Positions 20,822 to 47,694 of a stretch of 64,000 nt of DNA are shown here, in pieces (position 1 is the first letter of the stretch; the number at the start of each line of letters is the position of its first letter). The position numbers and the translations under genes are program-made. A model generated the notes under the pieces. It made no database searches, was not told the DNA's origin, and worked only from the letters and a program-made list of their open reading frames with translations. Source of the stretch: an uncultured archaeon (GTDB lineage Archaea > CAYFZR01); assembly GCA_964347835.1 (NCBI GenBank), contig CAYFZR010000065.1, forward strand, positions 19,496 to 83,495, in the 5' to 3' direction.

Positions 20822-20856
20822 AAAAATGAAGGTAATTTCTTTAAAAAAATTAAGAG

Positions 20857-21888
20857 GTGATGAAATTACTCGTTGGTTTAACTTATGATTTAAAGATCGA
20901 TTATTACGAGGAAAATAATTTAAACTCCGATATTTATGAAGAATTTGATGTTGAAGAAACTATTGCAGAGATATCAAATGTTTTAGAGGGTGCAGGACAC
21001 ACAGTTCTTAGATTAGGTAGTGGAAAAAAATTTCTGGAACGCATCCAGAGGGTATCGGTAGATATAGTTTTTAATATTGCAGAGGGCTTTGGAACTCGTT
21101 CCAGAGAGGCTCACGTTCCTGCTGTACTGGAAATACTTGGAATACCCTATACAGGCTCAGATCCTCTTACTTTGGCTTTAACATTGGACAAAGAGACTGC
21201 TAAGCGAGTAGTAATGACAACTAGCGTTCCAACGCCTCCATTTAAAGTAATTAGAGAGATGCAAGATTTGAAGGAACTAAACCTAGATTATCCTCTCATT
21301 CCAAAGTTACTCTACCAGGGCTCGAGCATTGGTTTAAGAAAAACTTCCAAAGTCAATAACTTTGAAGAATTAGAAGAAAGAGTTGCCTGGCTTCTACTAA
21401 CATATCAGGAACCTGTGATAGTGGAAGAATTCATTGAGGGGAGGGAATTTACCGTTGGAGTATTAGGTAATAACCAAAATGCGTATGTCTTGGGAATCAT
21501 GGAGATATCTCCAAAAAAAGGAAAGAGGCAAGATTTCATTTATTCCCTAGAGTCAAAGAGGAATTGGAAAGAATTGAATTACACTGTGAATCCTTCCCTT
21601 GAAAAATCCTTGGAAGAAAGGATAAGACAGGTAGCATTGACTGTTCATAGGGTTTTGGGCTGCAGAGATGTTTCTAGAATAGATTTCAGGGTTGACTCGG
21701 AAAAAAAACCTTACTTTTTGGAGGTAAACCCACTTCCCGGATTGAATCCTAACTTTAGTGATCTTCCATTGATCGCGAGTGGAGTTGGCATGGAATACAA
21801 AGACCTTGTTTACTGTATTTTTGAAAATGCGCTACAACGTTACGGTATGATCTTACATGAATCGAAGAGTAGGTATAATCTACAATAA
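20857..21888 (+). CDS. ATP-grasp enzyme, D-alanine--D-alanine ligase-like (paralog 1)
   Basis: 343 aa. Ddl-type motifs GIPYTGS, EEFIEGREFTVGV, SRIDFRVD and YFLEVNPLPG. Confidence 0.8.
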   Translation: MMKLLVGLTYDLKIDYYEENNLNSDIYEEFDVEETIAEISNVLEGAGHTVLRLGSGKKFLERIQRVSVDIVFNIAEGFGTRSREAHVPAVLEILGIPYTGSDPLTLALTLDKETAKRVVMTTSVPTPPFKVIREMQDLKELNLDYPLIPKLLYQGSSIGLRKTSKVNNFEELEERVAWLLLTYQEPVIVEEFIEGREFTVGVLGNNQNAYVLGIMEISPKKGKRQDFIYSLESKRNWKELNYTVNPSLEKSLEERIRQVALTVHRVLGCRDVSRIDFRVDSEKKPYFLEVNPLPGLNPNFSDLPLIASGVGMEYKDLVYCIFENALQRYGMILHESKSRYNLQ

Positions 21889-22849
21889 GGTCTCTGATGA
21901 TGATAGACCTGATAGAAAGGGAATTTTAAGAGCAGTTGACTCTGTAAAGACAGTTCTAAAGGAGATTGGATATCCTTACAGCCTTTATGGCTTAGATGGA
22001 GATTTGAAACACTTCGTAAGGGAAATTGAATTTATTAAGCCCGACGTAATCATTAATTTATGCGAAGACTTCGAGGGAAAGAGCGAAGGCGAGATTTTCA
22101 TAGCTTCTTTACTCGAAGAAATGGGGATGAGTTACACGGGTTCTCCTCCTAAAGTTCTTAAAAATGCCTTGTACAAACCCATAGCCAAGAAAATTTTTGT
22201 TAAGAGCAGTATTCCCACCCCAAGATGGAGAGTTTTCGGAAAAAAACCTATAAAAGAAAAAGATCTTAGTTTTCCGGTCATAATTAAGCCAAAAAAAGAA
22301 GATGGAAGCATAGGCATAGATAAAGAGAGCGTGGTTGACTCCATTGAATCCCTAAAAAGAAAATCAAAGGAGCTCATTAAATATTTCGGCACCAATCTGA
22401 TGATTGAAGATTATATAGACGGACGTGAATTTAACGCAGCCTTTTTTGATGGTGAAATTCTGGCAATTGGAGAAATAGAATTTGATATAGAGCCAAGAAT
22501 CGTTGGATACGATGCTAAATGGAAAGAAGGCTCTGAAGAAGATCTAAAAACAAGAGCAAAATATCCTGCGAATTTGAATACTAAGGAAGAAGAAAGGATA
22601 AAAGCTGTGGCTCTGAAGGCCCTTAAAGTCCTTCAAATTAGAGATTATGGAAGAGTAGATTTGAGGATGGACGAAGAAGGAAATATTTTTGTTTTGGAAG
22701 TAAACCCAAATCCCGATATATCTCCAGGCTCAGGATTTATAAAAGCTCTCGAAGTTTCCGGATTTTCTTACAGAGATTTTATCCAAAGATTAATAGAGAT
22801 AACTCTTAGGAGAACTGAAAATGAGAATCAGAACTCTCCAAAGCAATGA
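21857..22849 (+). CDS. ATP-grasp enzyme, D-alanine--D-alanine ligase-like (paralog 2)
   Basis: 330 aa. Motifs MSYTGS, EDYIDGREFNAAF, GRVDLRMD and FVLEVNPNPD. Overlaps the upstream gene by 32 nt. Confidence 0.8.
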   Translation: MNRRVGIIYNKVSDDDRPDRKGILRAVDSVKTVLKEIGYPYSLYGLDGDLKHFVREIEFIKPDVIINLCEDFEGKSEGEIFIASLLEEMGMSYTGSPPKVLKNALYKPIAKKIFVKSSIPTPRWRVFGKKPIKEKDLSFPVIIKPKKEDGSIGIDKESVVDSIESLKRKSKELIKYFGTNLMIEDYIDGREFNAAFFDGEILAIGEIEFDIEPRIVGYDAKWKEGSEEDLKTRAKYPANLNTKEEERIKAVALKALKVLQIRDYGRVDLRMDEEGNIFVLEVNPNPDISPGSGFIKALEVSGFSYRDFIQRLIEITLRRTENENQNSPKQ

Positions 22850-23306
22850 AAAATACGAGATTGAGAGTTTGATCATAAAAACTGGGGTTTTTAAACCTAA
22901 TGAGATTCAAGTAGCCTTAGAAGTCTTAGATCGGTCTCTTAAAGGAGATCTTTCTTACCAAATAGAAGTGATGGAAAACGATGATGGTCAGATTTTGGGA
23001 TTTATATGTTTCGGACTTAATCCTATGTGCGATGCTGTTTTTGAGCTGTATTGGATAGCAGTGGATCCAGAAAATCAGGGCAAAGGCATAGGACACTCTC
23101 TTTTATATAATCTCGAAAAGAAAGTTATGGAATTAAATGGAAGAATGATCGTAATAGAAACGTCTTCGAGACCCGAATACAAAAATGCTAGAGAATTTTA
23201 TGAAGATTTAGGGTACGAAATTATTTGTAAATTTCCAAATTTTTATGCTCCGGGGGACGATAAAATAGTGTATGCAAAAGTTTTAAACCAAAAAGTTTTG
23301 AATTAA
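22821..23306 (+). CDS. GNAT-family N-acetyltransferase
   Basis: 161 aa. Acetyl-CoA binding motif A (NQGKGIGHSLL). Overlaps the upstream ATP-grasp gene by 29 nt. Confidence 0.8.
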   Translation: MRIRTLQSNEKYEIESLIIKTGVFKPNEIQVALEVLDRSLKGDLSYQIEVMENDDGQILGFICFGLNPMCDAVFELYWIAVDPENQGKGIGHSLLYNLEKKVMELNGRMIVIETSSRPEYKNAREFYEDLGYEIICKFPNFYAPGDDKIVYAKVLNQKVLN

Positions 23307-23380: not shown

Positions 23381-25852
23381 CTAAGCGTATCTATATTCCA
23401 AGAATCTTCTCAAGAATATTTCAAAGAAAAATAAGAAAAGCGCTGCCTTCACTAGTATCTCCCAAATATTTTCCATCTCTGTTTGATATTGTTTTGTTTC
23501 TTTTATATCTTTTAACAGATCTTGTTTTAAAGAGTCTATTTCGTTTGAATCGTAATATTTTCCTCCTGTAACTGAACAAATCTTTTTTAGTGTCTCTGTA
23601 TCAGGCTCAAGTTCTCTTATCTCTACAGGATAGTTAATGGTCATTCCTCCCTCATCTGAATACTCTTTGTTTCCGTAAGCCTTAAACAAAAAAACTCCTG
23701 TATGATTTGATCTTAAGGAAGATTGATACAGGTTAAGATCGATTTGCTCTACTTTCAAAGCCTTTTTCTCTGTTGTTTCGTACAATTCAACCTCTTTCAT
23801 CGGAAAGGAAGTCACTATATTTAATATCATGTTTTCACCTAATTCTGAGTTTCTGGCAATAATTTTAATCGGTTTTCTCCATTCTAAATCTCCTACTACC
23901 CAGTTGACTATGTTCTTCATTAATTTAGGATGATCTTTCCATGCTACAAAAGGATAGCCCCATGAATTGCCGTTGTCTGTAGTGTAAGAGGCGACTCTTC
24001 CTAATCCATAATGCCAGACGGTAAGAATCATGTTCATATCATCAGTAGCAATCAAAGATTGTGCTCCTGCTTTTTTACTCACCAAATTAAGTCCACTAAC
24101 ACTGGAAGAAATCTCGATGTCTCTGGTTATGAAGTGTTCTTCATCCAGGATCTGTAAGGAGTAGTGTTCTTTTCTTTCTTCCTCTTTCTTCCCGAAGAGG
24201 AAACTAAGTCTCTGAACGGCTGTGGGTCTGAAGTATTCTCCTCCTGTTTTTCTTGCCAAAGTTTGCATGAAGGGTTCATAGGTATCGCTGCCTACACCAA
24301 CCGTATAAATTGTGTTTCCGGAAGTTTCTGCATACTGAACAGCCTCCTCTGGAAATGCGGTAAGACCGTCGGATATCAAAACTATGTATTTCTTTCCCGC
24401 AAAACCAGAAAGTAATTGATTTGCTCTTATCAATGCGGGTGTTATGTAAGTTCCTTCGCCAGAGCTTAATCTAGATACTTTCTCCGTTAGATCCTCCATA
24501 TCTGTGACAAGAGAGAACTCTTTTATTAGGTATGGATCCACATCAAAAGCCAAAACACCAACGTAATCTCCTGGATCAAGATCATTTATTAGATTTATTG
24601 TAATTGCCTTCTCGAGATCTAATTTCGATGTTCCTCCAAAGGCTTGTCCTGTGCTACCGGAAATGTCTAAAACAAAGATGATTCCTAACTTTTCTTTCCT
24701 CTGCTTAGGCTCAGGAGATGATGTAACTGGCAATATCTTTTCAAAGGAACTTTTATAGTAAGAGCCATAATCAAAGGAATTATCTCCGCCAATTACCAAT
24801 AATCCTCTGCCTTCTCTTACATAACCCCTTAATTCGTTTATCGTCGAATGTGAAATTCGATTAACGGGAATATTATCAAGTATAATTGCATCGTATTTAT
24901 TTAAATCATCAATAGATGTACTAGAGGTCTTAGTTAAAATATAATCTTTCCCAATTTCACCTATAATATAATTTGAACTCTCTGAAGAAATGTAAATTAT
25001 TTTTGGTCTCTCAACAATCTCTAAAGACGCGTATCTTACATTGTTATACGGAAAGTAATCGTTTTTAGGATCTATGATTGCTTTTATTACATAGAATCCT
25101 TCTTCGCTAGTTTTGTACGAATACTCGATTATTTCTGTCTCTTTTTCTTGAATTTTATGGGTATCATATATCAATTTATCATCTATAAACAATTTGAAGT
25201 CATATTCAGCCGTTAAATTTCCAAAATTTTTTACGTGTACTTCTATGTCAAAAGAACTTCCTGGATAACTCTTTTCGGGTACTATTAATTCTTCTACTGC
25301 TACCTCATTCCTAACGTTAGACACTCCAAGAGCATAAATGCCAATGTCCCTCTCTTTCGCAATCATGCTCGCTTCAATTGGATCTTTGCCGTAATTATTT
25401 TGACCATCCGACACAAGCAGGATCTTTCCTGCTTCCATCTTTGATATTGTCTCTTGGATCGTGTTCCCGATAGAAGTCCTGTACTCATGGGAAAAGGGTA
25501 TTAATTTGACACTGTCCTTACCGATCTTCTCTCCAAAGAAATTATATAAATTCTTTGTCTGGTTATTGAAATTATACAACTCCATACTCCTCGATTCATC
25601 CAGCAGAATATAGATGGTAGGATTTTCTACAATAGTCCTTTCAAAAGAGTATATTCCTATGATAGACAAAATTACTAGTGTAAGTACTATAATTCTTAAA
25701 AAAAAAATTAAAAACCTCTTATTTCCTAAAAAAGCCTTATCAGATCTCTGTAATAAGTAGTAATATAGGATCGCTAAGGGTACAAGCAACAACAACCAAG
25801 GTTTACTTCCTATGAAGATACTCATCTCAAATTCTCCGTATAATACATCCAT
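23381..25852 (-). CDS. BatA-like membrane-anchored von Willebrand factor A (VWA) domain protein
   Basis: 823 aa. N-terminal TM helices, VWA MIDAS motif (IIFVLDISGSTGQ) and a large C-terminal extension. Last gene of the MoxR/DUF58/VWA operon. Confidence 0.75.
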   Translation of the reverse strand: MDVLYGEFEMSIFIGSKPWLLLLVPLAILYYYLLQRSDKAFLGNKRFLIFFLRIIVLTLVILSIIGIYSFERTIVENPTIYILLDESRSMELYNFNNQTKNLYNFFGEKIGKDSVKLIPFSHEYRTSIGNTIQETISKMEAGKILLVSDGQNNYGKDPIEASMIAKERDIGIYALGVSNVRNEVAVEELIVPEKSYPGSSFDIEVHVKNFGNLTAEYDFKLFIDDKLIYDTHKIQEKETEIIEYSYKTSEEGFYVIKAIIDPKNDYFPYNNVRYASLEIVERPKIIYISSESSNYIIGEIGKDYILTKTSSTSIDDLNKYDAIILDNIPVNRISHSTINELRGYVREGRGLLVIGGDNSFDYGSYYKSSFEKILPVTSSPEPKQRKEKLGIIFVLDISGSTGQAFGGTSKLDLEKAITINLINDLDPGDYVGVLAFDVDPYLIKEFSLVTDMEDLTEKVSRLSSGEGTYITPALIRANQLLSGFAGKKYIVLISDGLTAFPEEAVQYAETSGNTIYTVGVGSDTYEPFMQTLARKTGGEYFRPTAVQRLSFLFGKKEEERKEHYSLQILDEEHFITRDIEISSSVSGLNLVSKKAGAQSLIATDDMNMILTVWHYGLGRVASYTTDNGNSWGYPFVAWKDHPKLMKNIVNWVVGDLEWRKPIKIIARNSELGENMILNIVTSFPMKEVELYETTEKKALKVEQIDLNLYQSSLRSNHTGVFLFKAYGNKEYSDEGGMTINYPVEIRELEPDTETLKKICSVTGGKYYDSNEIDSLKQDLLKDIKETKQYQTEMENIWEILVKAALFLFFFEIFLRRFLEYRYA

Positions 25853-27741
25853 TCAATAAGTAGGAATAGCATCACAAAAGAAAGTATGAAAGGATACCAA
25901 TTTCTTTTGTTCTCAGTCAAAGTAACATATTCCGGTTTTTGAATCAATTTATCGTCTGATACAGTTTGTTTAAACGCAATATCCGATTCTTTTTCATTCA
26001 GGAGATTAACCGCGAGATATTCTCTCAAATTATTATGCTCAATTGTATATATGCCAATATGCTCTAAAGGGAATGGTGCAGAAGGTTCTAGGGAAAAGGC
26101 TTTCCCGTTTGGATCGGTTATGCGAACTTTTGAGTTCGCGGTAATTATTGAACCAGTTAGAATATTCTTCTCAGGGATGATTCCTTGATTCTTGCTGCTC
26201 CACTCTAGGGCATGATACCAATATACCGGAAATGAAGGATCATACTGAAAATTGGTCGTTTTATCTGGATAGAAACTCAAGAAAACTACTTTACCACCCG
26301 AAATTCTTAATGAAATGAGAGAATTTCTATCTAATGATTCTGCTATTGTTAATGAGCCATTTTTTGGATTATTGCTAACGTATCTTTCAACAAAAACATT
26401 CTTGAACGAAGTATCCTTTAGTATTGAGTGTTCGCCTACCGGTATGACGTCGGTTTTTTCTTTTACAATGCTTTGAAGATTTACTGGCAATACCTCTTTG
26501 ATCAAACTTAAGGCGCGGAGATCACTTCCAAGGACTATTAAACCGCCGCCTCTTTTTACATAACCGCTGAGATCTTTATCAATTCCAGGTAAAAGATGAT
26601 CATGAGGTACGTCCCCGAAGATTATGACGTCAAAATCATCTAATTTTGAAGGTATCACTGGTGGTTGTGCTAAATCTAATTTTATATTCGGTAGAGATTC
26701 TAATGCCAACCTTAAATAAGGAGGTGCTTCTTTTCTTTCTATGAGTAATACTTTATGCATCCTTATCTCAGGTAATATGCCAAAAGCAACATTATCCGTT
26801 TCTAAATCGTCTTTTGCATCGATTGAAAATCTTAGGGTGTGAACACCGAGTGAAGTAGAACCAGTATAAGTAATTGATTTTGCCTCCTTAGAAGACAAAA
26901 AAATCTTTTCCGAGTGAATTAGTTTTCCATCCAAGTATATATTAGCCTTTAATTCTTCTGATTTTTCTTTGTAGTTTTTTATTCTTAAAAATGTGTAGAA
27001 TACATTCAAATTATTTGTATCTCTCGTTACAGTTGCGCCGACTATGCCAACATTCTCTCCCCTATTATTGATATCTACAAAGGAGGTGTCTATGCCGTTA
27101 GCCCTCAATAAGTTTGTTGCATCTTCGACAGGATAACCTAGTTGACTGTAAGAAATGTCCGATAGTATGTATACAGTTTTTTTCCCTTCTTTGCCCTCTA
27201 ATATAGTATTTGCAAGCAAAATCGCATCTCCGATATTTGTCTTAGTAGATTTGCACTCGAGAGAATTAACAGTATTTTTGATATCTTTATAATTATCTGT
27301 AGGCTGAACTATTAATTCTGGAGTATTTTTAGCAAATATTATACCAATATTCCCATCTATGGAGTCTAAAAGAGAAAATAATAATTTTTTTGCCTTGTCA
27401 AATCTTTTCTCCCCAAAATCCTTTGCATTCATGCTTGCAGAAGCATCTATGATAAATATTACTTCGTCTAATTTTTTTTTTGCTCCGATTGTATATGGAT
27501 TAGCCAGCGATAGTACCAATAGACCTAATATAAAGAGTTGAAGAAGTAAAAGGGGTAGTTGGGTTATCCTTTTTATTGAAAGTTTTTTCTCCCTCTCCTT
27601 TATACCCTTTAGGAAGAACATGAGCGTGGAGAAACTTTCCTTCTTGGTTTTTTGCCATATCAAATAAAGTATTACTACAGGAATCCAAATTAATAAAAAA
27701 ATCAGGGCATTGGGATTTGCGATATCAGCCATGAGAAGCAC
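25822..27741 (-). CDS. VWA-domain membrane protein (BatB-like)
   Basis: 639 aa. N-terminal TM helices, MIDAS motif (VIFIIDASASM) and a C-terminal TM anchor. Confidence 0.7.
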   Translation of the reverse strand: MLLMADIANPNALIFLLIWIPVVILYLIWQKTKKESFSTLMFFLKGIKEREKKLSIKRITQLPLLLLQLFILGLLVLSLANPYTIGAKKKLDEVIFIIDASASMNAKDFGEKRFDKAKKLLFSLLDSIDGNIGIIFAKNTPELIVQPTDNYKDIKNTVNSLECKSTKTNIGDAILLANTILEGKEGKKTVYILSDISYSQLGYPVEDATNLLRANGIDTSFVDINNRGENVGIVGATVTRDTNNLNVFYTFLRIKNYKEKSEELKANIYLDGKLIHSEKIFLSSKEAKSITYTGSTSLGVHTLRFSIDAKDDLETDNVAFGILPEIRMHKVLLIERKEAPPYLRLALESLPNIKLDLAQPPVIPSKLDDFDVIIFGDVPHDHLLPGIDKDLSGYVKRGGGLIVLGSDLRALSLIKEVLPVNLQSIVKEKTDVIPVGEHSILKDTSFKNVFVERYVSNNPKNGSLTIAESLDRNSLISLRISGGKVVFLSFYPDKTTNFQYDPSFPVYWYHALEWSSKNQGIIPEKNILTGSIITANSKVRITDPNGKAFSLEPSAPFPLEHIGIYTIEHNNLREYLAVNLLNEKESDIAFKQTVSDDKLIQKPEYVTLTENKRNWYPFILSFVMLFLLIEWMYYTENLR

Positions 27742-28573
27742 CCAAGAATTCTAAAAAGACGTCATGAATAGGTTGATCCGTTGTTGTAAGGAAGTAATCT
27801 GCGTTAACGTCCCTGCAGAATCTATTTATTGATCGAATGTGTCTCTCCACTTCTTTGGAATATCTATCAATTGCTTTTCTTGTTAATGATATCCTTTGTC
27901 TTTCATGGGTCTCGAGATCTAAAATTTCGTAGTCTCCCTTAAAAGGTAAAAATATCTCTCCTTTATCTAAAATTTGAAATAAGATTATATCATTTCCTTT
28001 AGCCGCTAGTTTGTAAAGAGACCACCTTATAGTCTCTAAATCCGAGAGAAGATCGGATATTAGGATTATGAGCCTCTTTCCTTGGGTAATCTGCATATAT
28101 TCTTTAACAACCTTCTTTAAATCCGTCGTTCCTCGGGATTCTATCTTTTCCAACGCGCTTAGTATTCTTATGAACTGCCTTCTACCTCTTCTAGAATGTA
28201 TTCTTGTGTTTAAATGATCGGAAAAGGTGAATAAACCTACTCTATCGTTATTTTGTGCCACAAGATAAGAAAAACCTGCTGCAGATTTTGTTGCATAATC
28301 TAATTTCGATACAGAATCAGAAGAGTAAAGCATGCTATTGCTCGTGTCCAATAATACATGGGCAATGATTTCTCTTTCTTCTTCATATCTCTTCACGTGT
28401 AATTTTTCAGTTCTGGCAAAAATCTTCCAATCAACAGTCTTGTAGTCGTCTCCCGGCGAATATTCTCTATAGTCGACTATTTCCAACCCTTTTCCCTTTA
28501 GTTTTGATCTATGTTCTCCAGAATAAGCAGTAATCATCTTCTTTTTAACCATTAAGTTTAATTTTTTAAGCAT
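27725..28573 (-). CDS. DUF58 protein (MoxR-associated)
   Basis: 282 aa with the hallmark DUF58 motif DYREYSPGDDYKTVDWK. Confidence 0.8.
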   Translation of the reverse strand: MLKKLNLMVKKKMITAYSGEHRSKLKGKGLEIVDYREYSPGDDYKTVDWKIFARTEKLHVKRYEEEREIIAHVLLDTSNSMLYSSDSVSKLDYATKSAAGFSYLVAQNNDRVGLFTFSDHLNTRIHSRRGRRQFIRILSALEKIESRGTTDLKKVVKEYMQITQGKRLIILISDLLSDLETIRWSLYKLAAKGNDIILFQILDKGEIFLPFKGDYEILDLETHERQRISLTRKAIDRYSKEVERHIRSINRFCRDVNADYFLTTTDQPIHDVFLEFLGASHG

Positions 28574-28603
28574 TTTATAAAAACTAGGATCGTATAAACT
28601 CAG

Positions 28604-29566
28604 TTATGACACCTCTTCAATAATAGAGTTTATAACCCCGTCAGTTGAGGTTCCTTGCGCCTCAGCCTCGAAATTTAATATCAGTCTGTGTCTTAGCACA
28701 GGGAATATCATCTTTTTTATGTCCTCTCCGCTTACATAGGTTCTTCCTTGAATTAGGGCTCTTGCTTTGGAGGCTAAAATTAAGGAAATTGAAGCTCTTG
28801 GGGAGGCACCATATTCGATATATTTTTTCGCTACATTGCTTGCATTGTTAGAATTAGGTCTTGTAGCGGCGACTAGGGAAACTGCATATTCTTCTATGTC
28901 GCCTGCTATTGGTATCATTCTCACCAATTTTTGCAGTTCGATCAAGTCATTCCTACCCAATATCTTTCTTACTGTCGGCTCTTGACCCTTCGTATAGAGT
29001 CTAACTATATCCATCTCCTCTTCGCGCTCGGGATAGTCGATTAGAATCATTTGCAAGAACCTGTCTAACTGCGCTTCAGGCAGAGGGTAGGTTCCTTCCA
29101 TCTCAATAGGATTTTGTGTAGCCAAGACCAAAAATGGGGATGGTAGCTTAAATGTAGTTTTTCCTACGGTTACTTGTCTTTCTTGCATACACTCAAGTAG
29201 AGCGCTCTGAGATTTTGGCGTAGCCCGATTAATTTCATCAGCAAGGACGATATTCGTAAAAATCGGACCCTCAGAAAAAACAAACTTTTTTGTTTTGGTT
29301 ATTTTGTCTTCCTCTATTAAGTATGTTCCTGTGATATCCGAAGGCATTACATCAGGAGTACATTGTATCCTGCTAAATTCTAAGTCTAATACTTTTGAGA
29401 AGATTCTTATCATCATTGTTTTCCCCAGACCTGGTAATCCTTGGAGAAGCGCATGGTTGTCAGAAAGTAAGGTTATGAGCAATTGTTCGACTACCTCTTC
29501 TTGCCCTACGATTGCTTTAGATGCCTCCTTCTTTATCCCATCGAAGATTTCACGAGAGACTCTCAT
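28604..29566 (-). CDS. MoxR-family AAA+ ATPase
   Basis: 320 aa. Walker A (GLPGLGKT), Walker B/sensor region (VLADEINRATPKSQSALLECMQERQVTV). Confidence 0.9.
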   Translation of the reverse strand: MRVSREIFDGIKKEASKAIVGQEEVVEQLLITLLSDNHALLQGLPGLGKTMMIRIFSKVLDLEFSRIQCTPDVMPSDITGTYLIEEDKITKTKKFVFSEGPIFTNIVLADEINRATPKSQSALLECMQERQVTVGKTTFKLPSPFLVLATQNPIEMEGTYPLPEAQLDRFLQMILIDYPEREEEMDIVRLYTKGQEPTVRKILGRNDLIELQKLVRMIPIAGDIEEYAVSLVAATRPNSNNASNVAKKYIEYGASPRASISLILASKARALIQGRTYVSGEDIKKMIFPVLRHRLILNFEAEAQGTSTDGVINSIIEEVS

Positions 29567-30501
29567 TACTTCTCTACCTCTGCCAATTTCTCAAAGTATC
29601 TTTCGGCGATTTCTTTGTACTCGAAAACAATCTCCTCGCTATAGTACCTAGACGGTTCAGTCTCACCAACTTGAATATTTGTCATCTCTTTAGGACCGAA
29701 ATCTTCTTTTTCTATCCTATCTCCTCCAATTTCAGTGCCTTCTCCTCTTTTAATCTCAACTTTCACTTCTTCACCTTCTAGGGGCGCCCTGCTCTCTTCT
29801 CCGAATATATTTTCTCTTTGGCTATAAGTTCCGATTTTGCCTTCGCCTACGATTCCTTTTTCTCCAGTAGTTAGACCCAAGCCAGACAATATGTTATTGC
29901 ACGCTTTTCCTACCTTTGATAAAAGTCCAGTACTGATACTACCTTGATCTTCACCTAAGCCGGGCGCATTTGAATCGAAAACTCCCTTTTTCTGTAAAAT
30001 TGTTCCGTAACCAAGAACTTCAATCTCAAGATACTTGGGAGTGAAAATAAGGAGGATCAGTGCTACCAAACAAAGTATCAAAAAAACCCTCACAAATACT
30101 TTATTCATATCCACCAAGAGATTAAAGTCAAAATTGTCCAAGGATGTTTGCACATCTATGATTAATCTATTGACAAAATGATTTTCTTTCCATTCTTTGG
30201 CGTTGTCGTGGGCTGTTCTCAACTTTTCGCTTAACTCTGAGAAGTTTTCTTCGATCAATAATAAAAAGTTAATAGATCTATTTTTAAGTCTCTTAACGTA
30301 CAAGAAAATACCTGTAATAGTAAGGAAAAGAAATATAATATGAAATTCGTTAAAATTCAGCCTCGAAAGGAGAATAATAATGGAAAGCACGAGAAATATA
30401 ATGACGGCATCTAATATACTTTCATAAAAAATTATTTTTGCATAATCCTCTCTCATTAATTCTACTCTCTTAACGAGTTTGCTTCCAGCGTCCATGATCA
30501 T
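29566..30501 (-). CDS. Membrane protein, first gene of the MoxR/DUF58/VWA operon
   Basis: 311 aa, two to three TM segments plus a Gly/Glu-rich tail. Adjacent to moxR as in Bat-type operons. Confidence 0.4.
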   Translation of the reverse strand: MIMDAGSKLVKRVELMREDYAKIIFYESILDAVIIFLVLSIIILLSRLNFNEFHIIFLFLTITGIFLYVKRLKNRSINFLLLIEENFSELSEKLRTAHDNAKEWKENHFVNRLIIDVQTSLDNFDFNLLVDMNKVFVRVFLILCLVALILLIFTPKYLEIEVLGYGTILQKKGVFDSNAPGLGEDQGSISTGLLSKVGKACNNILSGLGLTTGEKGIVGEGKIGTYSQRENIFGEESRAPLEGEEVKVEIKRGEGTEIGGDRIEKEDFGPKEMTNIQVGETEPSRYYSEEIVFEYKEIAERYFEKLAEVEK

Positions 30502-32503: not shown

Positions 32504-33394
32504 CTAGAATAACTCATGTAGATTTACTTTGTAGGGACCTAACTTTCCCCCATAGTTCCCCGCTGTGATCTTTACCACACCTGGTACCTTTACTGCAGCC
32601 TCAATTCCTTTCTTTGTAGCCTCTTTTACCGCATCTAGGTTAAGACCATTTATCACAAGTTCGTAAATGGCTTCCACATCTTTAGGTACGAAGGTATCGG
32701 CCACCTTTTCTTTTAGTGTTGGAGCATAGCGTTCGTTTGTACTGGCTTTTAAGAATTTGTACTTGGAACCAACTTTTGAACCTGAAGCGACGATTCCACC
32801 CGGAAACGGAGTTATCGTACCTTCCAGTTCCATAACAGTATCCACGGCATCTTCTGCTGCAGTTAAAGCGGCCATCTGGTTCTTTGCCAAAATAAAAAAG
32901 TTTCCACCTGCCACGCCATCGACAGCGCCAATTTTATCCTCAATTACAAAATCTCCTTCCATCATCGGTATGTAGAACACCTTTCTACCAGATATCTCTC
33001 TCTCACTCTCGAATCCGTCTCCGAAAAATTTGAGTTTTGCTCCAGTATCGAATTGTAACTCGGCATCAGGTAATCCGTTGAAGCAAGCTGCCGTAGGAGC
33101 GGTGAGAACACATTGTCCAATTCTGTTGAGTAATTGGGTTCCCAATCCTTTTTCGCTAAAATGGCAAATCTGAATGTACGCACCAGGTCTTCCATCCGGT
33201 GTTTCATCTCCTCCAACGACCTTCTCAATGCCTGCTTCTGCAGGGCATGCAATCACCGAAGTTCCAAAACCAGTAGCCTCTGTAGCCGCTACTAGGGCCC
33301 ATCTTTTTGTAGCACCAGTTATCAAAGGCCTTGCAATTTTTATTGGAAAGGCCTCAGCAAAGGTATCTTCTATTTCAACTCCATTTATTTTCAT
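32504..33394 (-). CDS. ftr: Formylmethanofuran--tetrahydromethanopterin N-formyltransferase
   Basis: 296 aa. Near-colinear with characterised Ftr (MKINGVEIEDTFAEAF...ATEATGFGTSVIACPAEAGIE...FPGGIVASGSKVGSKY...ITAGNYGGKLGPYKVNLHELF). Confidence 0.9.
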   Translation of the reverse strand: MKINGVEIEDTFAEAFPIKIARPLITGATKRWALVAATEATGFGTSVIACPAEAGIEKVVGGDETPDGRPGAYIQICHFSEKGLGTQLLNRIGQCVLTAPTAACFNGLPDAELQFDTGAKLKFFGDGFESEREISGRKVFYIPMMEGDFVIEDKIGAVDGVAGGNFFILAKNQMAALTAAEDAVDTVMELEGTITPFPGGIVASGSKVGSKYKFLKASTNERYAPTLKEKVADTFVPKDVEAIYELVINGLNLDAVKEATKKGIEAAVKVPGVVKITAGNYGGKLGPYKVNLHELF

Positions 33395-42740: not shown

Positions 42741-43961
42741 CTATAGTGCTTCCTTAGGTACTTTGGCGGTGTACGCAAGTATAGCTGCTATTATACAAAG
42801 GGCCGATCCCATATAGAAGGATTCTAAGTATCTTCCTGTAACGTCGAATACGAATCCCGCTACCTGAGGTCCTACTACACCGGCTACTCCCCATGAACAG
42901 AAAACAAGACCGTAGTTTACACCTATGTTCTTAGGTCCAAAGAAGTCTGCTGTCGCTGATGGGAACAGAGAGAAGTTGGCTCCGTAACAGAATCCAATAA
43001 TCATCACCGTTGGATATAGCGTTGCAATACTGCCACCCATCTTGAAGAGTATAGCCATCATTATAGCCTGAATACCGAACATCAGACCCATCGTTGTAGG
43101 CCTTCCGAGGTAGTCTGATAACCAGCCTGCTCCCGGCCTTCCAAGACCGTTTAGAATGGATAACATACTTATAGCGAAGGCTGCTCTTACTGGATCGATT
43201 CCTGATTCAATAGCGAAAGCGGCTAAGTGTCCTATTACCAAAAGACCTGCCTGAGCCGCAAAGACGAAGGCTAACCAAACTTGCCAGAACGTACGCGTCT
43301 TTAAGATCTGTCCGGGCTCCAAGTCTTTTACTGCTTTTGCCATTGCTGATGATTCAGGTGGTGTCCATCCCGGAGGCACGTAACCTGGTGGCGGAAGCCT
43401 CAGGAGTTGAGAGAATACTGGTATACCGATTATAAACAGGACTCCAAAGTATAGGAAACATTTTCTCCATCCTAATGCCGGGTTAAGGATAATTGACGTT
43501 CCTATAGGCGCTAAGAAGAACGCTCCAGCACCGAATCCCATCACGATTAAACCTGTAACGAGTCCTCTCTTGTCTGGGAACCATTTTATACCAGTGGCTA
43601 CCGGAGTAACATAAGCAGCTGCTTCACCGATTCCTCCAATTATACCGTAGGTAAACAGCAAGTATGGCAACGATTGAGCCCATGTAGAGAGTATGAACCC
43701 AAGACCAAGTAGAACACCGCCTCCCGTTGCTACCCATTTAGGTCCGTAAATGTCCTGCAATTTACCTGCTGGAATCATCATAAATCCGAACAAGAATACA
43801 ACAACTGTGAATGGGCTTGCTGCTTGCGCCTTAGTCCAGCCAAATTCAGCCATCAATGGTTTGATGAATATAGACCAACTGTAGATAACTCCAAGCTGTA
43901 AGTTTACGATTAGACCGCCTACTACCACTAACCATCGATTGAATACTTTCTCTTCTGCCAT
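42741..43961 (-). CDS. MFS transporter, oxalate/formate antiporter (OFA) family
   Basis: 406 aa with 12 predicted TM helices. OFA-type N-terminus (RWLVVVGGLIVNLQLGVIYSWSIF). Confidence 0.8.
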   Translation of the reverse strand: MAEEKVFNRWLVVVGGLIVNLQLGVIYSWSIFIKPLMAEFGWTKAQAASPFTVVVFLFGFMMIPAGKLQDIYGPKWVATGGGVLLGLGFILSTWAQSLPYLLFTYGIIGGIGEAAAYVTPVATGIKWFPDKRGLVTGLIVMGFGAGAFFLAPIGTSIILNPALGWRKCFLYFGVLFIIGIPVFSQLLRLPPPGYVPPGWTPPESSAMAKAVKDLEPGQILKTRTFWQVWLAFVFAAQAGLLVIGHLAAFAIESGIDPVRAAFAISMLSILNGLGRPGAGWLSDYLGRPTTMGLMFGIQAIMMAILFKMGGSIATLYPTVMIIGFCYGANFSLFPSATADFFGPKNIGVNYGLVFCSWGVAGVVGPQVAGFVFDVTGRYLESFYMGSALCIIAAILAYTAKVPKEAL

Positions 43962-44282: not shown

Positions 44283-44996
44283 TTGAGGGGAAGGGAAATG
44301 GAAGCACTTATTCTTGCGGCTGGAGATGGGACTAGGCTCGGATCAGTTACAACGAGAACTCCAAAGGTATTACTAGAGGTAGATGGCGAACCCATTATAG
44401 TCAAAACTTTAAATTCTCTTAAAAATATAGGCATATCGCGAGTTACCATAGTAATAGGGTTTTTGGGTGATAATATAATTAAATATCTGGGAAATAAATG
44501 GAAAGGTCTAAGAATAGACTACGCTTTAAGCGACTGGTACGGAGACGGGATTGTAAGATCTATTATAAAGGCAAAAGATTGTACCAACGAGAGTTTCTTA
44601 TTGCTTTTGGGCGACAATATATTTGAAGAGGAACTGCTCAAGAATCTATCCAAAGTAAGCGGAGACTTCATCCTTCCAGTAGATAAAGACCTCTCGAAGG
44701 AAGGACTTAGGATCAGGTGCGATTTTGAAGGCAAGATTATAGAATGGGGAAACGAGATAAGAGAATATAACGGAATAGCCATGGGCGCTTCCCTTTGCTC
44801 TCCTGTTGTTTTTAAGGCTTATGAACAGGCTCTGAGAAATGGTAAAGTCGACAGACTCGATTGCTTACCTTGGCTTTACGAAAACGGTTACAACGTTAAG
44901 ATTCTCGAAGTACACAACAAGAGATGGTTCGATATAGATACGTTGGAAGACTTGTACATGGCTAGAAAGGCTCAAGTTCTGAAAGAGATCTTATGA
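44283..44996 (+). CDS. Sugar/alcohol-phosphate nucleotidyltransferase, CTP:inositol-1-phosphate cytidylyltransferase (IPCT)-like
   Basis: 237 aa. LILAAGDGTRLG nucleotide-binding motif, LLGDNIFEE, and C-terminal WFDIDTLEDL matching the IPCT WMDVDTKED motif. Confidence 0.65.
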   Translation: MRGREMEALILAAGDGTRLGSVTTRTPKVLLEVDGEPIIVKTLNSLKNIGISRVTIVIGFLGDNIIKYLGNKWKGLRIDYALSDWYGDGIVRSIIKAKDCTNESFLLLLGDNIFEEELLKNLSKVSGDFILPVDKDLSKEGLRIRCDFEGKIIEWGNEIREYNGIAMGASLCSPVVFKAYEQALRNGKVDRLDCLPWLYENGYNVKILEVHNKRWFDIDTLEDLYMARKAQVLKEIL

Positions 44997-46050
44997 ACGA
45001 GTAGAAGAGTAAAAGTAACACCGTTATTTGACAAATAGATACGAATAACAAGGCAAACTCTGGTTTATTCAGAATACAAAGGAGTGCTACTGCAAAAAAT
45101 GAAAAATCTCTGTCCCAGGGTCTGATTTTAGGGTGCCCTAATACTTTTGCATACACTCTTTCCCAAGCGAGGTTAGTTTCTGCCATACAGTATTCTTTCA
45201 GGTAAAAACGCATGTTAAAGGAAAATGCACCTAAAAATCCTAATAGAATGGTCAAAGGAGCATATAAACGGTTTAAACTTACATAGGTCAGCGCAAGAAT
45301 TAGCGCCATTTCGGTCAATCTATCAAAAAAAGAGTCTAAGGAGGCTCCTGCATCAGATGTCTGGCATTTAAGCCTGGCAACTTTTCCATCCACACCATCT
45401 AATAAAACGCCGATATAAAGGAGGGGTGAGCCGTATAAAAAATTTTCAGTTGCCACCAGATATGAAGCAAGAAAAATTATGCCCGGGCTTATTAGAGTAA
45501 TTTGCATCGGATTTATGGGCGTAGCGATAAAAATTCTGGTAATCCACCGGGAAAACGGTAGATTAAAATATCTTGTGAACTTAGAATAACTCGAAAAGGG
45601 AGATTTTAAATCAAATCTGGTTTCTACAGAGAAATCAAATATCAATTCCTCTAAATCCTTTTCAACTATTTTTTCCACGTCTTCGCAGAAATAATTCTCA
45701 GTAAATACCTCCTCAAATTTATCTAAATTTATTTCTTTAAAAGATTCAACGATGTCTTTCTTGGACATTTTATAGGCGGGTAATCTCTTACCATTCTTTA
45801 CTAAGATAGCGGGCATTGTTGCTTTTAATAGCCTAAAAAAAAGTCTATGATCTACGAGTAGATTGGCCTTTAGCAAAAGAAATGTATCTTCTTCGAGATT
45901 TGGTAGCTCTTTATCTAAAACAGACTCATCTAAGAATATTGCATCTAAATTTGCGCTATTCGCTATCCATTTTAACCTATCTTTCCATTTTACGCCCCAA
46001 TGTGTATAATTCAATTTTTGCTCATCGTCATAAAAAAAGACACATTTCAT
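44962..46050 (-). CDS. CDP-alcohol phosphatidyltransferase family protein with about 190-aa N-terminal soluble extension
   Basis: 362 aa. C-terminal membrane domain carries DGVDGKVARLKCQTSDAGASLDSFFDR, i.e. D-G-x2-A-R-x8-G-x3-D-x3-D. Confidence 0.75.
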   Translation of the reverse strand: MKCVFFYDDEQKLNYTHWGVKWKDRLKWIANSANLDAIFLDESVLDKELPNLEEDTFLLLKANLLVDHRLFFRLLKATMPAILVKNGKRLPAYKMSKKDIVESFKEINLDKFEEVFTENYFCEDVEKIVEKDLEELIFDFSVETRFDLKSPFSSYSKFTRYFNLPFSRWITRIFIATPINPMQITLISPGIIFLASYLVATENFLYGSPLLYIGVLLDGVDGKVARLKCQTSDAGASLDSFFDRLTEMALILALTYVSLNRLYAPLTILLGFLGAFSFNMRFYLKEYCMAETNLAWERVYAKVLGHPKIRPWDRDFSFFAVALLCILNKPEFALLFVSICQITVLLLLFYSFIRSLSELEPF

Positions 46051-46054
46051 TTTT

Positions 46055-47038
46055 TCACCTAAAATGGATGTCTACAAGTTCCTTAAGATCATTGTAGGCT
46101 TTTTTAATCCATTCTATAATATCTAATTCCCCGTATACATTTTCATAAGAATCAGGGCCTGATTCAAGTATGAAGGCTCCTCTATACCCTTTATTAGCCA
46201 ATACTTTTATGAAATCTTCTACAGGAGTTACTCCAAATCCCACTGGTAAGTGTAAATCTCCTTTTTTAACCTCATAATCCTTTTTTTCGTCCAAAGCACC
46301 TGATAAGCCGTAATTTGAATGTATATGGGTATGAATGCAATTGTCAGCGAATTCATCAAAGAATTTCTCGTACGGAATATTCATCAGCGTATGAGATATG
46401 GTAGCATGTCCAAAATCCCATACAGTTCCTACGTATGGAGAATTAAGACTCCTTATAATCTCTAATATTTCGTCAGGTCTAGTCCCTACCCTTTTTACTC
46501 CTATTTTCGGAGGCATATTCTCTACACCAATCAAAAGAGGCATATCGTACTTCTCAACCATCTTAATGGCATCTCTTAGGCTAGCGTAAATCTTTGAAAT
46601 CAATTTTTCCTCTACCTCAACCTCCCAATCGTACCTAACCTTATGACTCGGATGGACGATTGCTGCTGGCGCGTCAATTTCGACACAAATTTCAAATCCA
46701 GCGTCTAATATATCTACAATTCTCTCATGAGGTTTTCCACAACTTTCATCTAGATAAACAGGAGCGTACCCAGGATAAGGAGAGTGATAGATATAACAAA
46801 AATCGAATGAACTTAAAGTATCAAGGACGCTTCTCTTCATCTCTTTATTCAAATTACCCATGCTATCAAATATCTTTTGATTAACCCCTTGGAACTCTAC
46901 TACTTTTATTTTAGCCTGCGAATAGAGTTCCAAAACTTCTTCCAAACTGAAATTGTAGGGATCCGAAAACCAGCCCTTAGATACATACATTCCACATTCA
47001 TTGCATAACTTTCTGGTTAAGTATTGATCTATGGTCAT
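46055..47038 (-). CDS. Xylose isomerase-like TIM-barrel enzyme (sugar phosphate isomerase/epimerase; IolE/IolI superfamily)
   Basis: 327 aa. Metal-binding His/Glu/Asp pattern (GVENMP, WDFGHA, HTHIHS). Stop codon 4 nt from the start of the CDP-alcohol phosphatidyltransferase gene. Confidence 0.65.
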   Translation of the reverse strand: MTIDQYLTRKLCNECGMYVSKGWFSDPYNFSLEEVLELYSQAKIKVVEFQGVNQKIFDSMGNLNKEMKRSVLDTLSSFDFCYIYHSPYPGYAPVYLDESCGKPHERIVDILDAGFEICVEIDAPAAIVHPSHKVRYDWEVEVEEKLISKIYASLRDAIKMVEKYDMPLLIGVENMPPKIGVKRVGTRPDEILEIIRSLNSPYVGTVWDFGHATISHTLMNIPYEKFFDEFADNCIHTHIHSNYGLSGALDEKKDYEVKKGDLHLPVGFGVTPVEDFIKVLANKGYRGAFILESGPDSYENVYGELDIIEWIKKAYNDLKELVDIHFR

Positions 47039-47106: not shown

Positions 47107-47694
47107 TTGGCGCGTACACTTTATATTAGACTAAAAACTTTACATAAGAAAGGTGGTAATTTGAGTAGAGCCTACCTAATTATGTGCGTATACATTTTGT
47201 TTTTTACAGTTAGCATTGCGTTTTCTGAGGAATTTTACACCCTCTCTATGTACAAGAAGTACGAAGGAGAAACATTGAACGGACTCTACATAAGATACGT
47301 AACAAAAGACGGAGTGGGAATAAGAGATAACTTCGATAGATTATGGAGTTTTAACCCTGAGACTTTTCCGACTTGTTGTTCTTATAACAAACTACGAAGA
47401 TACCTCTGGAGGTTAGAGAACGGAATAAGCATGCAGGAATATGGGTACTTAAAATTTAATTATACTGAACTGGAGTTAGATCCACTATCTGTTTATAAAA
47501 GACATATAGGAGAAAATATCAATGGAATAACAATATTATTCGTAACGAAAGACGGAGTAATTGTAAAAGATGAAGAAGAGAATTTCTATGGATTTAATCC
47601 AGAATATTTGCCTAAATGCGCCTGTTTTTCCAATAGGTTGAATGACGTAATTCTTCGATTAACCAGGGGGCTTGAACTTTTGGAGGGTTATTGA
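47107..47694 (+). CDS. Secreted protein built from two homologous about 75-aa domains
   Basis: 195 aa. Signal/anchor, then YKKYEGETLNGLYIRYVTKDGVGIRDNFDRLWSFNPETFPTCCS and YKRHIGENINGITILFVTKDGVIVKDEEENFYGFNPEYLPKCACFS. Confidence 0.45.
   Translation: MARTLYIRLKTLHKKGGNLSRAYLIMCVYILFFTVSIAFSEEFYTLSMYKKYEGETLNGLYIRYVTKDGVGIRDNFDRLWSFNPETFPTCCSYNKLRRYLWRLENGISMQEYGYLKFNYTELELDPLSVYKRHIGENINGITILFVTKDGVIVKDEEENFYGFNPEYLPKCACFSNRLNDVILRLTRGLELLEGY

What the first reader, a model, noticed from the sequence alone, without database searches (positions are those of the whole stretch)
44283..47038. IPCT-like cytidylyltransferase convergent with an operon of a TIM-barrel sugar isomerase and an N-terminally extended CDP-alcohol phosphatidyltransferase
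The nucleotidyltransferase carries IPCT-like motifs including the C-terminal W.D.DT.ED. The 362-aa partner has the full CDP-alcohol phosphatidyltransferase signature in a C-terminal membrane domain, but about 190 N-terminal residues lack any recognisable nucleotidyltransferase motif, unlike fused IPCT/DIPPS enzymes. The co-operonic upstream gene is a xylose-isomerase-like TIM barrel, the superfamily that includes inosose isomerase and dehydratase. No inositol-1-phosphate synthase is present. Together this suggests synthesis of a CDP-activated polyol/sugar and its transfer to an alcohol, i.e. a di-inositol-phosphate-like solute or an unusual polar lipid head group, by a variant pathway.
Basis: partly seen in the sequence, partly recalled or inferred. 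Interest (0 to 1): 0.6.

Follow-up and report, generated by a model that had tools for sequence, protein, structure and literature searches.

The report
Split inositol-phosphate-type solute cassette with metallo-TIM barrel
The three genes are real and form a rearranged copy of a two-gene unit found in some archaea and many Aminicenantes bacteria, and which I found described in no paper: an endonuclease-IV-like metal TIM barrel coupled to an enzyme pair that activates a small alcohol phosphate with CTP and joins it to a second alcohol, probably to make a stress-protective solute.

Summary
All three ORFs exist as described. The 362-aa protein has a complete CDP-alcohol phosphotransferase (CDP-AP) signature on six TM helices. 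Its N-terminal domain has a nucleotidyltransferase fold with the catalytic motifs lost.

The separate 232-aa nucleotidyltransferase (NTase) matches, over its full length (E 1e-42 to 1e-51), the NTase domain of fused NTase/CDP-AP proteins. Those proteins are also the best relatives of the membrane domain. The window therefore holds a split version of a fused enzyme.

The TIM barrel is closest to MJ1311 and endonuclease IV, not to inosose isomerase. It keeps all nine trinuclear-metal ligands of endonuclease IV. In every context examined, its orthologs sit immediately upstream of, and usually overlap, the fused gene, while the flanking genes differ.

No inositol-1-phosphate synthase is in the window or beside any cassette.

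Best reading: a soluble CDP-alcohol pathway that makes a di-inositol-phosphate-like phosphodiester solute. The TIM barrel probably carries out a phosphoester hydrolysis step. That role and the substrates are inferred, not shown.

It is a new variant of a known kind, of moderate interest.

The parts
44298..44996 (+). Stand-alone nucleotidyltransferase (232 aa from ATG 44298; the ORF opens at TTG 44283). It is IPCT-like and has an intact G-loop LAAGDGTRLG, LLLGDNIF and WFDIDTLEDL.
   Evidence: Pfam NTP_transferase/NTP_transf_3. Best PDB hits are 2xme and 4mnd at about 1e-14. It matches, over its full length, the NTase domain of fused relatives P0033, P0009, P0015, P0008 and P0007 at E 1e-42 to 1e-51. 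A purine-rich stretch (GAGGGGAAGGGAA) runs up to ATG 44298.
44962..46050 (-). 362-aa CDP-alcohol phosphotransferase of AF2299-type architecture (pseudo-nucleotidyltransferase domain plus six TM helices).
45616..46050 (-). N-terminal soluble domain (about residues 1-145): nucleotidyltransferase fold with catalytic motifs lost (AAGDGTR becomes FYDDEQK; GD becomes AN; about 45 residues deleted).
45322..45399 (-). CDP-AP catalytic signature D218xxD221G222xxA225R226...G235xxxD239xxxD243.
   Evidence: Sequence. These columns are invariant or nearly invariant in the 141-sequence alignment.
46055..47038 (-). MJ1311/endonuclease-IV-like metallo TIM barrel (327 aa, or 311 aa from M17 at 46990). It lies upstream of the CDP-AP gene on the same strand.
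   Evidence: Pfam AP_endonuc_2 5.2e-24. Profile against PDB: MJ1311 5.8e-25, endonuclease IV 2e-14, IolI 2.7e-6. Nine endonuclease IV metal ligands present: H85, H129, E173, D208, H211, H238, D261, H263, E292. Orthologs lie next to the fused NTase/CDP-AP in every context examined.
44962..44996 (.). 35-nt convergent overlap of the 3' ends of the NTase and CDP-AP genes. The same overlap is found in the 73%-identical relative.
   Evidence: Coordinates; the same 35-nt overlap in L001-L003.
46051..46054 (-). 4-nt spacer between the TIM barrel stop and the CDP-AP start. AGGTGA overlaps the stop codon, which suggests translational coupling.
   Evidence: Sequence.

Best explanation
The locus is a split, three-gene version of a conserved two-gene cassette: an endonuclease-IV/MJ1311-like metallo TIM barrel followed by a fused IPCT-like nucleotidyltransferase / DIPPS-like CDP-alcohol phosphotransferase.

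Proposed mechanism:
1. The stand-alone NTase uses CTP to activate a soluble alcohol phosphate, giving a CDP-alcohol. L-myo-inositol-1-phosphate is the most likely substrate by family. Glycerol phosphate or another polyol phosphate is not excluded.
2. The six-TM CDP-AP transfers the phospho-alcohol to a second soluble alcohol, giving a phosphodiester. Its N-terminal domain is an inactive relic of the once-fused NTase, kept as a structural cap as in AF2299.
3. The TIM barrel, with its endonuclease-IV-type metal centre, most likely hydrolyses a phosphoester in the same pathway. The favoured step is removal of the terminal phosphate from the phosphorylated product, by analogy with DIPP to DIP.

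Shown: the gene identities, the folds, the split-versus-fused relationship and the conserved gene linkage. Inferred: the substrates, the solute as end product and the step catalysed by the TIM barrel.
For: Link between NTase and CDP-AP:
- The window NTase matches the NTase domain of the fused proteins (E 1e-42 to 1e-51). The same proteins are the top hits for the CDP-AP membrane domain (tblastn 31-38% identity).

Link to the TIM barrel:
- Orthologs (27-33% identical to the window protein, full length) lie immediately upstream of the fused gene, and overlap it by 13 nt in most contexts. They occur in two archaeal lineages (L004, L007), in three divergent Aminicenantes-type contexts (L047, L052, L055) and on a short contig (L046). 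Flanking genes differ.
- About 50 ortholog clusters exist.

TIM barrel chemistry:
- Eight of the nine endonuclease IV ligands are invariant in all orthologs, and nine of nine are present in the window.
- The PDB ranking is MJ1311, then endonuclease IV, then IolI. For the L047 ortholog the best NCBIfam hit is deoxyribonuclease IV.
- Endonuclease IV has intrinsic 3'-phosphatase activity (established knowledge).

Soluble substrates:
- The protein has six TM helices and no extra C-terminal helices. PMC4634129 states that this architecture goes with soluble acceptors, and that AF2299 and DIPPS do not process lipids.

Inositol and stress-solute context of relatives:
- A Bathyarchaeota relative lies in an IPS-NTase-CDP-AP-CDP-AP-GT4 operon.
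- One fused relative lies in an operon with glycerate 2-kinase, a GpgS-like glycosyltransferase and an MpgP-family phosphatase.
- One cassette follows groES-groEL.
Against: - No IPS is in the window or next to any cassette, so inositol phosphate as substrate is unproven.
- The cassette clade lacks the second Arg of the RxxR motif found in DIPPS, AF2299 and PIPS (S317 in the window; G, N, I, T, S or M in fused relatives). That motif includes a PIPS Arg that binds the phosphate of the acceptor. The acceptor may therefore not be a phosphorylated alcohol, and then no phosphatase would be needed.
- I know of no small-molecule phosphatase in the AP_endonuc_2 family.
- Fused-type orthologs replace the D229-equivalent ligand by Q or R.
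- NCBIfam scores for IPCT/DIPPS are far below the cutoff.
Confidence: 0.5

Rival explanations
1. The TIM barrel is a sugar or polyol-phosphate isomerase/epimerase that makes the unusual alcohol phosphate which the NTase then activates.
For: The family PF01261 contains isomerases, epimerases and IolI/IolE. IolI is hit at 2.7e-6, and weak NCBIfam hits go to fructoselysine 3-epimerase and IolO. No IPS lies near any cassette. The missing second Arg argues against a phosphorylated acceptor, and so against the need for a phosphatase.
Against: The nearest relatives are MJ1311 and endonuclease IV, not isomerases. The five His/Asp ligands specific to the endonuclease IV trinuclear centre are kept in addition to the E-D-H-E set shared with isomerases.
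Confidence: 0.2
2. Kennedy-type lipid head-group synthesis. The CDP-alcohol made by the NTase is transferred to a membrane lipid alcohol (archaeol or diacylglycerol type), giving an unusual polar lipid, as proposed for the Bacteroides vulgatus MIPS/NTase/CDP-AP/HAD cluster.
For: PMC9246714 proposes exactly such an NTase + CDP-AP + hydrolase route. The enzyme is membrane-embedded. The next-best NCBIfam models are inositol-lipid synthases.
Against: The protein has only six TM helices, and lipid-acceptor CDP-APs usually have three or four more (PMC4634129). The closest structures, AF2299 and DIPPS, use soluble substrates. Relatives sit among compatible-solute genes.
Confidence: 0.15
3. This is ordinary di-myo-inositol-phosphate synthesis. 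The TIM barrel is simply the organism's DNA-repair endonuclease IV and has no role in the pathway.
For: JGI names several orthologs 'endonuclease IV'. The nine metal ligands are conserved.
Against: The adjacency, often with overlapping reading frames, is kept across bacteria and archaea while all other neighbours change. The window protein gives no NCBIfam endonuclease IV hit. An ortholog scores 42 bits against the TIGR00587 cutoff of 129.65. As I recall (paper not held), MJ1311 was reported to lack the DNA-binding groove.
Confidence: 0.07

Closest known systems
AF2299 of Archaeoglobus fulgidus (PDB 4o6m/4o6n/4q7c), a CDP-alcohol phosphotransferase with an N-terminal cytidylyltransferase-like domain
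   Same: Two-domain architecture: a non-catalytic nucleotidyltransferase-fold domain on a six-TM CDP-AP with the full signature. Foldseek TM 0.70-0.72 over both domains; phmmer E 4e-14.
   Different: Only about 21% identical. The window protein is closer to the cassette-type fused enzymes. It has DGK instead of DGE in the signature and RDFS instead of RDFR. It is paired with an adjacent active NTase and a TIM barrel. I could not examine the gene neighbourhood of AF2299.
Bifunctional IPCT/DIPPS (A. fulgidus AF0263, PDB 4mnd; NCBIfam NF041135)
   Different: The activities are split over two genes, and the cis NTase domain is dead. Scores are 78 and 64 bits against a cutoff of 580. No IPS is nearby. 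The gene is always linked to a metallo TIM barrel, which is not part of the described DIP pathway.
MJ1311 (PDB 3wqo), an uncharacterised TIM barrel of Methanocaldococcus jannaschii
   Same: It is the best solved relative of the TIM barrel (5.8e-25). It has the same nine endonuclease-IV-type metal ligands.
   Different: About 25-30% identity. MJ1311 has no assigned function, and I could not examine its gene context.
Endonuclease IV (Nfo, PDB 1qtw and others)
   Same: TIM barrel fold family. All nine trinuclear-zinc ligands align.
   Different: It scores far below the family cutoffs. The gene linkage points to small-molecule metabolism, not DNA repair.
Bacteroides vulgatus-type putative inositol-lipid cluster (MIPS + NTP transferase + CDP-AP + HAD hydrolase; PMC9246714)
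   Same: A triad of nucleotidyltransferase, CDP-AP and a hydrolase encoded together.
   Different: That cluster includes MIPS and a HAD hydrolase and is proposed to make lipids. Here there is no MIPS, and the hydrolase candidate has a different fold.

Membership tests
Class I CDP-alcohol phosphotransferase | Signature D1xxD2G1xxAR...G2xxxD3xxxD4 on TM2-TM3 | tested here: met
   D218, D221, G222, A225, R226, G235, D239 and D243 are all present. Pfam PF01066 scores 46.5 bits against a cutoff of 22.
AF2299-type CDP-AP | N-terminal cytidylyltransferase-like domain without catalytic motifs, fused to a six-TM CDP-AP | tested here: met
AF2299-type CDP-AP | Orthology with AF2299 (same substrate pocket) | tested here: inconclusive
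   The membrane domain is closer to the cassette-type fused enzymes (93-100 bits) than to AF2299 (56 bits for the whole protein). RDFR becomes RDFS and DGE becomes DGK.
Bifunctional IPCT/DIPPS (NF041135) | Score above the curated cutoff of 580 bits | tested here: not met
   NTase 77.8 bits; CDP-AP 63.6 bits.
Bifunctional IPCT/DIPPS (NF041135) | Active cytidylyltransferase and phosphotransferase in one polypeptide | tested here: not met
   The cis NTase domain lacks the GxGTR loop and the GD motif. The active NTase is a separate convergent gene.
DIP pathway | Inositol-1-phosphate synthase available | tested here: inconclusive
   No IPS in the 64-kb window or in any cassette locus. The rest of the genome could not be searched.
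DIP pathway | CTP:inositol-1-P cytidylyltransferase and DIPP synthase activities | not testable with these tools
   Needs enzyme assays.
Archaetidylinositol phosphate synthase (NF040950) | Score above the cutoff of 180 bits; about 190-aa protein using CDP-archaeol | tested here: not met
   66.4 bits, partial match to residues 168-270. The protein has an extra N-terminal domain and a partner NTase.
Xylose-isomerase-like TIM barrel (PF01261) | Pfam score above the gathering cutoff | tested here: met
   85.7 bits against 31.1.
Endonuclease IV (Nfo) | Nine ligands of the trinuclear zinc centre (H69, H109, E145, D179, H182, H216, D229, H231, E261) | tested here: met
   H85, H129, E173, D208, H211, H238, D261, H263 and E292 (two columns corrected by eye). 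Orthologs keep eight of nine.
Endonuclease IV (Nfo) | Family-level sequence membership (TIGR00587 cutoff 129.65) | tested here: not met
   No NCBIfam hit for the window protein at E up to 0.1. Ortholog L047 scores 42 bits.
Endonuclease IV (Nfo) | AP-site DNA binding and cleavage | not testable with these tools
   Needs biochemistry or a structure of the TIM barrel.
Inosose isomerase / dehydratase (IolI, IolE) | Closest relationship to IolI/IolE among TIM barrels | tested here: not met
   IolI at 2.7e-6 ranks below MJ1311 (5.8e-25) and six endonuclease IV sequences.
Sugar/alcohol-phosphate nucleotidyltransferase (PF00483) | G-loop, catalytic Asp and Pfam score above cutoff | tested here: met
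   47.9 bits against 21.2. LAAGDGTRLG and LLLGDNIF are present.

The most novel reading that the evidence does not exclude
The MJ1311/endonuclease-IV-like TIM barrel is a previously unrecognised class of small-molecule phosphoesterase dedicated to phosphodiester-solute biosynthesis: the pathway's own phosphatase. The cassette then makes a solute other than classical DIP, without a linked IPS, in Aminicenantes and several uncultured archaea. This would also give a first function to the MJ1311 orphan family.
Probability: 0.3. Interest if true: 0.7.

Novelty: new variant of a known kind. Interest (0 to 1): 0.5.

Why it matters
Phosphodiester solutes such as di-myo-inositol phosphate, diglycerol phosphate and glycerophosphoinositol are hallmark stress protectants. 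The dephosphorylation step has no dedicated enzyme. As I recall, the genes for the glycerol-based solutes were never assigned, and AF2299, although crystallised, has no firm function.

A metallo TIM barrel that is translationally coupled to an IPCT/DIPPS-like enzyme across two domains of life is a concrete, testable candidate for a missing step. It also gives a handle on the orphan MJ1311 family.

The window adds a natural example of how a fused bifunctional enzyme decays into the AF2299-type pseudo-enzyme architecture while the lost activity is supplied in trans.

Tried and rejected
- Word-index homolog searches with the single proteins found almost nothing. Only the exhaustive profile search and profile-seeded searches reached relatives.
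- The first AlphaFold run with a two-sequence alignment failed (pLDDT 37).
- Sequence-only tests of the N-terminal domain against NTase profiles were not significant and gave inconsistent registers (phmmer; hhalign). Homology of that domain rests on the predicted fold and on its position.
The four-sequence scan returned mostly partial Paenibacillus and Clostridia TIM barrels with no CDP-AP nearby, which I rejected as unrelated family members.
- P0005, a 25%-identical TIM barrel, has no CDP-AP neighbour and is not an ortholog.
- The stand-alone CDP-AP P0006 has an uninformative context.
- The HAD phosphatase beside the fused gene in L006 first looked like a replacement for the TIM barrel. It is an MpgP-family enzyme in a glycosylglycerate-type operon, so I do not use it as evidence for the TIM barrel's role.
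- Longer CDP-AP homologs carry no phosphatase fusion that could hint at the third step.
- Look-ups to extend the window's contig failed.
- The Sciara 2014, Borges 2006 and MJ1311 structure papers are not held.
- Literature searches found no description of this TIM barrel/CDP-AP pairing.
Full report
**Observation**

They give clear family matches:
- NTP_transferase/NTP_transf_3 for 44283-44996(+).
- CDP-OH_P_transf on residues 184-328 of the 362-aa product of 44962-46050(-).
- AP_endonuc_2, the xylose-isomerase-like TIM barrel, for 46055-47038(-).

The stated motifs are all visible in the translations: WFDIDTLEDL in the NTase, and the full D1xxD2G1xxAR...G2xxxD3xxxD4 signature at residues 218-243 of the CDP-AP.

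Gene layout:
- The TIM barrel stop is 4 nt from the CDP-AP start, with AGGTGA in front of the ATG.
- The NTase converges on the CDP-AP gene and overlaps it by 35 nt.
- The only close relative found, from a Candidatus Hydrothermarchaeota genome (CDP-AP 73%, TIM barrel 85%, NTase 82% identical), has the identical layout.
- The NTase probably starts at ATG 44298, giving 232 aa.
- The TIM barrel may start at M17.

No IPS homolog is in the window (Pfam scans).

**The 362-aa protein**

It aligns over nearly its whole length with AF2299, a crystallised A. fulgidus CDP-alcohol phosphotransferase (E 4e-14). PMC4634129 makes three relevant statements:
- Neither enzyme processes lipids.
- AF2299 was solved with CDP-glycerol bound.

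A two-sequence AlphaFold run failed. With a 141-sequence alignment the model reached pLDDT 92.5 and pTM 0.89.

| Search | Target | Result |
|---|---|---|
| Foldseek | AF2299 | TM 0.70-0.72 over both domains |

In the alignment the N-terminus is colinear with the NTase domain of its fused relatives. The G-loop is destroyed (AAGDGTR becomes FYDDEQK), the GD motif is lost (AN), and about 45 residues are deleted.

Sequence alone does not prove this homology. The alignment given to AlphaFold also contained real NTase domains. I therefore rate "decayed NTase domain" as likely, at about 0.8, rather than certain.

The membrane part has six TM helices and nothing beyond them.

**The NTase and the split-gene relationship**

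An exhaustive profile search found only P0002 as a close relative. The next hits (E 7e-23 and weaker) cover the membrane domain only. The best of these are fused NTase/CDP-AP proteins of 436-459 aa: P0007, P0008, P0009, P0015 and P0033.

The window's stand-alone NTase matches the NTase domain of exactly these proteins over its full length at E 1e-42 to 1e-51. This is far better than its match to A. fulgidus IPCT (1e-14). The two window genes are therefore the separated halves of one fused enzyme type, and the cis copy of the NTase domain has decayed.

These fused proteins are distant from curated IPCT/DIPPS: 136-180 bits against a cutoff of 580.

**The TIM barrel**

A profile of the TIM barrel and its orthologs was searched against solved structures:

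| Target | E-value |
|---|---|
| MJ1311 | 5.8e-25 |
| Endonuclease IV (nine distinct sequences, from several species) | 2e-14 to 1e-4 |
| IolI | 2.7e-6 |
| Xylose isomerase | above 1 |

All nine ligands of the endonuclease IV trinuclear zinc centre have counterparts: H85, H129, E173, D208, H211, H238, D261, H263 and E292. Two columns were corrected by eye.

Eight of the nine are invariant across six orthologs that are only 26-85% identical to one another. D261 is Q or R within a conserved CHCP motif in the fused-type cassettes.

For one ortholog the best NCBIfam hit is deoxyribonuclease IV, but far below the cutoff. The window protein gives no NCBIfam hit. The protein is therefore endonuclease-IV-like in its active site without being a member of that family.

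As I recall, the MJ1311 structure paper reported the same nine residues and no DNA-binding groove. That paper is not held.

**Conserved linkage**

Orthologs of the TIM barrel (27-33% identical to the window protein, full length) lie immediately upstream of the fused NTase/CDP-AP on the same strand, usually overlapping it by 13 nt. This holds in every context I could read.

| Loci | Source and context |
|---|---|
| L004/L005/L010/L045 | uncultured archaeon |
| L007/L011 | second archaeon |
| L046 | 2.5-kb metagenome contig |
| L047/L056/L057 | cassette directly after groES-groEL; a second, more canonical fused paralog 2 kb downstream |
| L052-L054 and L055 | Aminicenantes-type contexts |

About 50 ortholog clusters exist. 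Those that carry an organism name are all Candidatus Aminicenantes or Aminicenantaceae, and JGI calls several of them "endonuclease IV". Because the flanking genes differ each time, the two-gene cassette is the conserved unit.

One member of the fused clade (L006) lacks the TIM barrel. It sits in a tight operon with glycerate 2-kinase, a GpgS-like glycosyltransferase and an MpgP-family phosphatase, which is a compatible-solute context.

A stand-alone Bathyarchaeota relative lies in an IPS-NTase-CDP-AP-CDP-AP-GT4 operon. None of the cassette loci has IPS.

**Mechanism**

Shown:
- An active-looking IPCT-like NTase.
- A complete six-TM CDP-AP with a dead NTase cap.
- A metallo TIM barrel genetically coupled to both.

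Inferred:
1. The NTase makes a soluble CDP-alcohol.
2. The CDP-AP joins it to a second soluble alcohol.
3. The TIM barrel hydrolyses a phosphoester in the pathway. Most simply this is the terminal phosphate of a phosphorylated product, as in DIPP to DIP. In 2015 PMC4634129 noted that the analogous PIP phosphatase was still unidentified.

Weak points:
- The cassette clade lacks the second Arg of the RxxR motif that DIPPS, AF2299 and PIPS share. It is S317 in the window. PMC4634129 reports that R153, which lies in that motif, binds the phosphate of the acceptor together with R191. I could not tell which of the two motif arginines is R153. The acceptor may differ, and a phosphatase may not be needed.
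- No IPS is linked to the cassette.
- I know of no small-molecule phosphatase in this TIM barrel family.

The main rivals are an isomerase/epimerase role for the TIM barrel, and a Kennedy-type lipid head-group synthesis like the one proposed for Bacteroides vulgatus (PMC9246714).

**Verdict**

- The N-terminal extension is the known AF2299-type pseudo-NTase domain, not a new domain.
- The TIM barrel points to phosphoester chemistry, not inosose chemistry.
- New, as far as the held literature shows: the conserved pairing of an endonuclease-IV-like TIM barrel with an IPCT/DIPPS-like enzyme across bacteria and archaea. The window holds its split form.

Noticed in passing
window 19535-23306 (+): A lysine-2,3-aminomutase-like radical SAM gene is followed by two D-Ala-D-Ala-ligase-like ATP-grasp genes and a 161-aa ORF. 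This may be a beta-lysine-derived solute or peptide cluster.
   Followed up: no
window 23381-30501 (-): A run of same-strand genes. The two scanned (23381-27741) carry BatA, VWA, DUF7408, CARDB and GATase1-like domains, resembling an aerotolerance (Bat) operon. The three ORFs at 27725-30501 were not scanned.
   Followed up: no
window 47107-47694 (+): A 195-aa ORF divergent from the TIM barrel, with no family hit. It has an obvious internal duplication (YKKYEGETLNGLYIRYVTKDGV... and YKRHIGENINGITILFVTKDGV...). A 165-178-aa gene with no family hit occupies the same position in the relative, but I did not compare the sequences.
   Followed up: partly
window 42741-43961 (-): An MFS transporter scores above the NCBIfam cutoff for the L-lactate transporter SfMCT (423 against 320 bits). 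It lies next to the NTase gene. The relative's contig ends before this point, so linkage could not be checked.
   Followed up: partly
L042 4403-8859 (also L043, L044): A Bathyarchaeota-type operon: inositol-1-phosphate synthase, a 253-aa NTase, two consecutive stand-alone CDP-APs (231 and 225 aa) and a GT4 glycosyltransferase. It suggests two different inositol-phosphate products, or a glycosylated one.
   Followed up: partly
L006 964-6448: A tight operon of glycerate 2-kinase, a 443-aa GpgS-like glycosyltransferase, an MpgP-family phosphatase and a fused NTase/CDP-AP, with a convergent 228-aa GpgS-like glycosyltransferase. It looks like a combined glycosylglycerate and phosphodiester solute island.
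   Followed up: partly
L047/L056 232-7885: The order is groES-groEL, then the TIM barrel/fused NTase-CDP-AP cassette, then a second, more canonical fused IPCT/DIPPS-like paralog 2 kb downstream. This recalls A. fulgidus, which has both DIPPS and AF2299.
   Followed up: partly
L004, L007, L046, L047 TIM barrel orthologs (column of window D261): The Asp equivalent to endonuclease IV D229 is replaced by Q or R. The neighbouring His is flanked by two conserved cysteines (CHCP). This may be a remodelled third metal site.
   Followed up: no
window 32504-33394 (-): A formylmethanofuran:tetrahydromethanopterin formyltransferase (FTR) gene, showing that the organism has this step of H4MPT-dependent C1 metabolism.
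   Followed up: no
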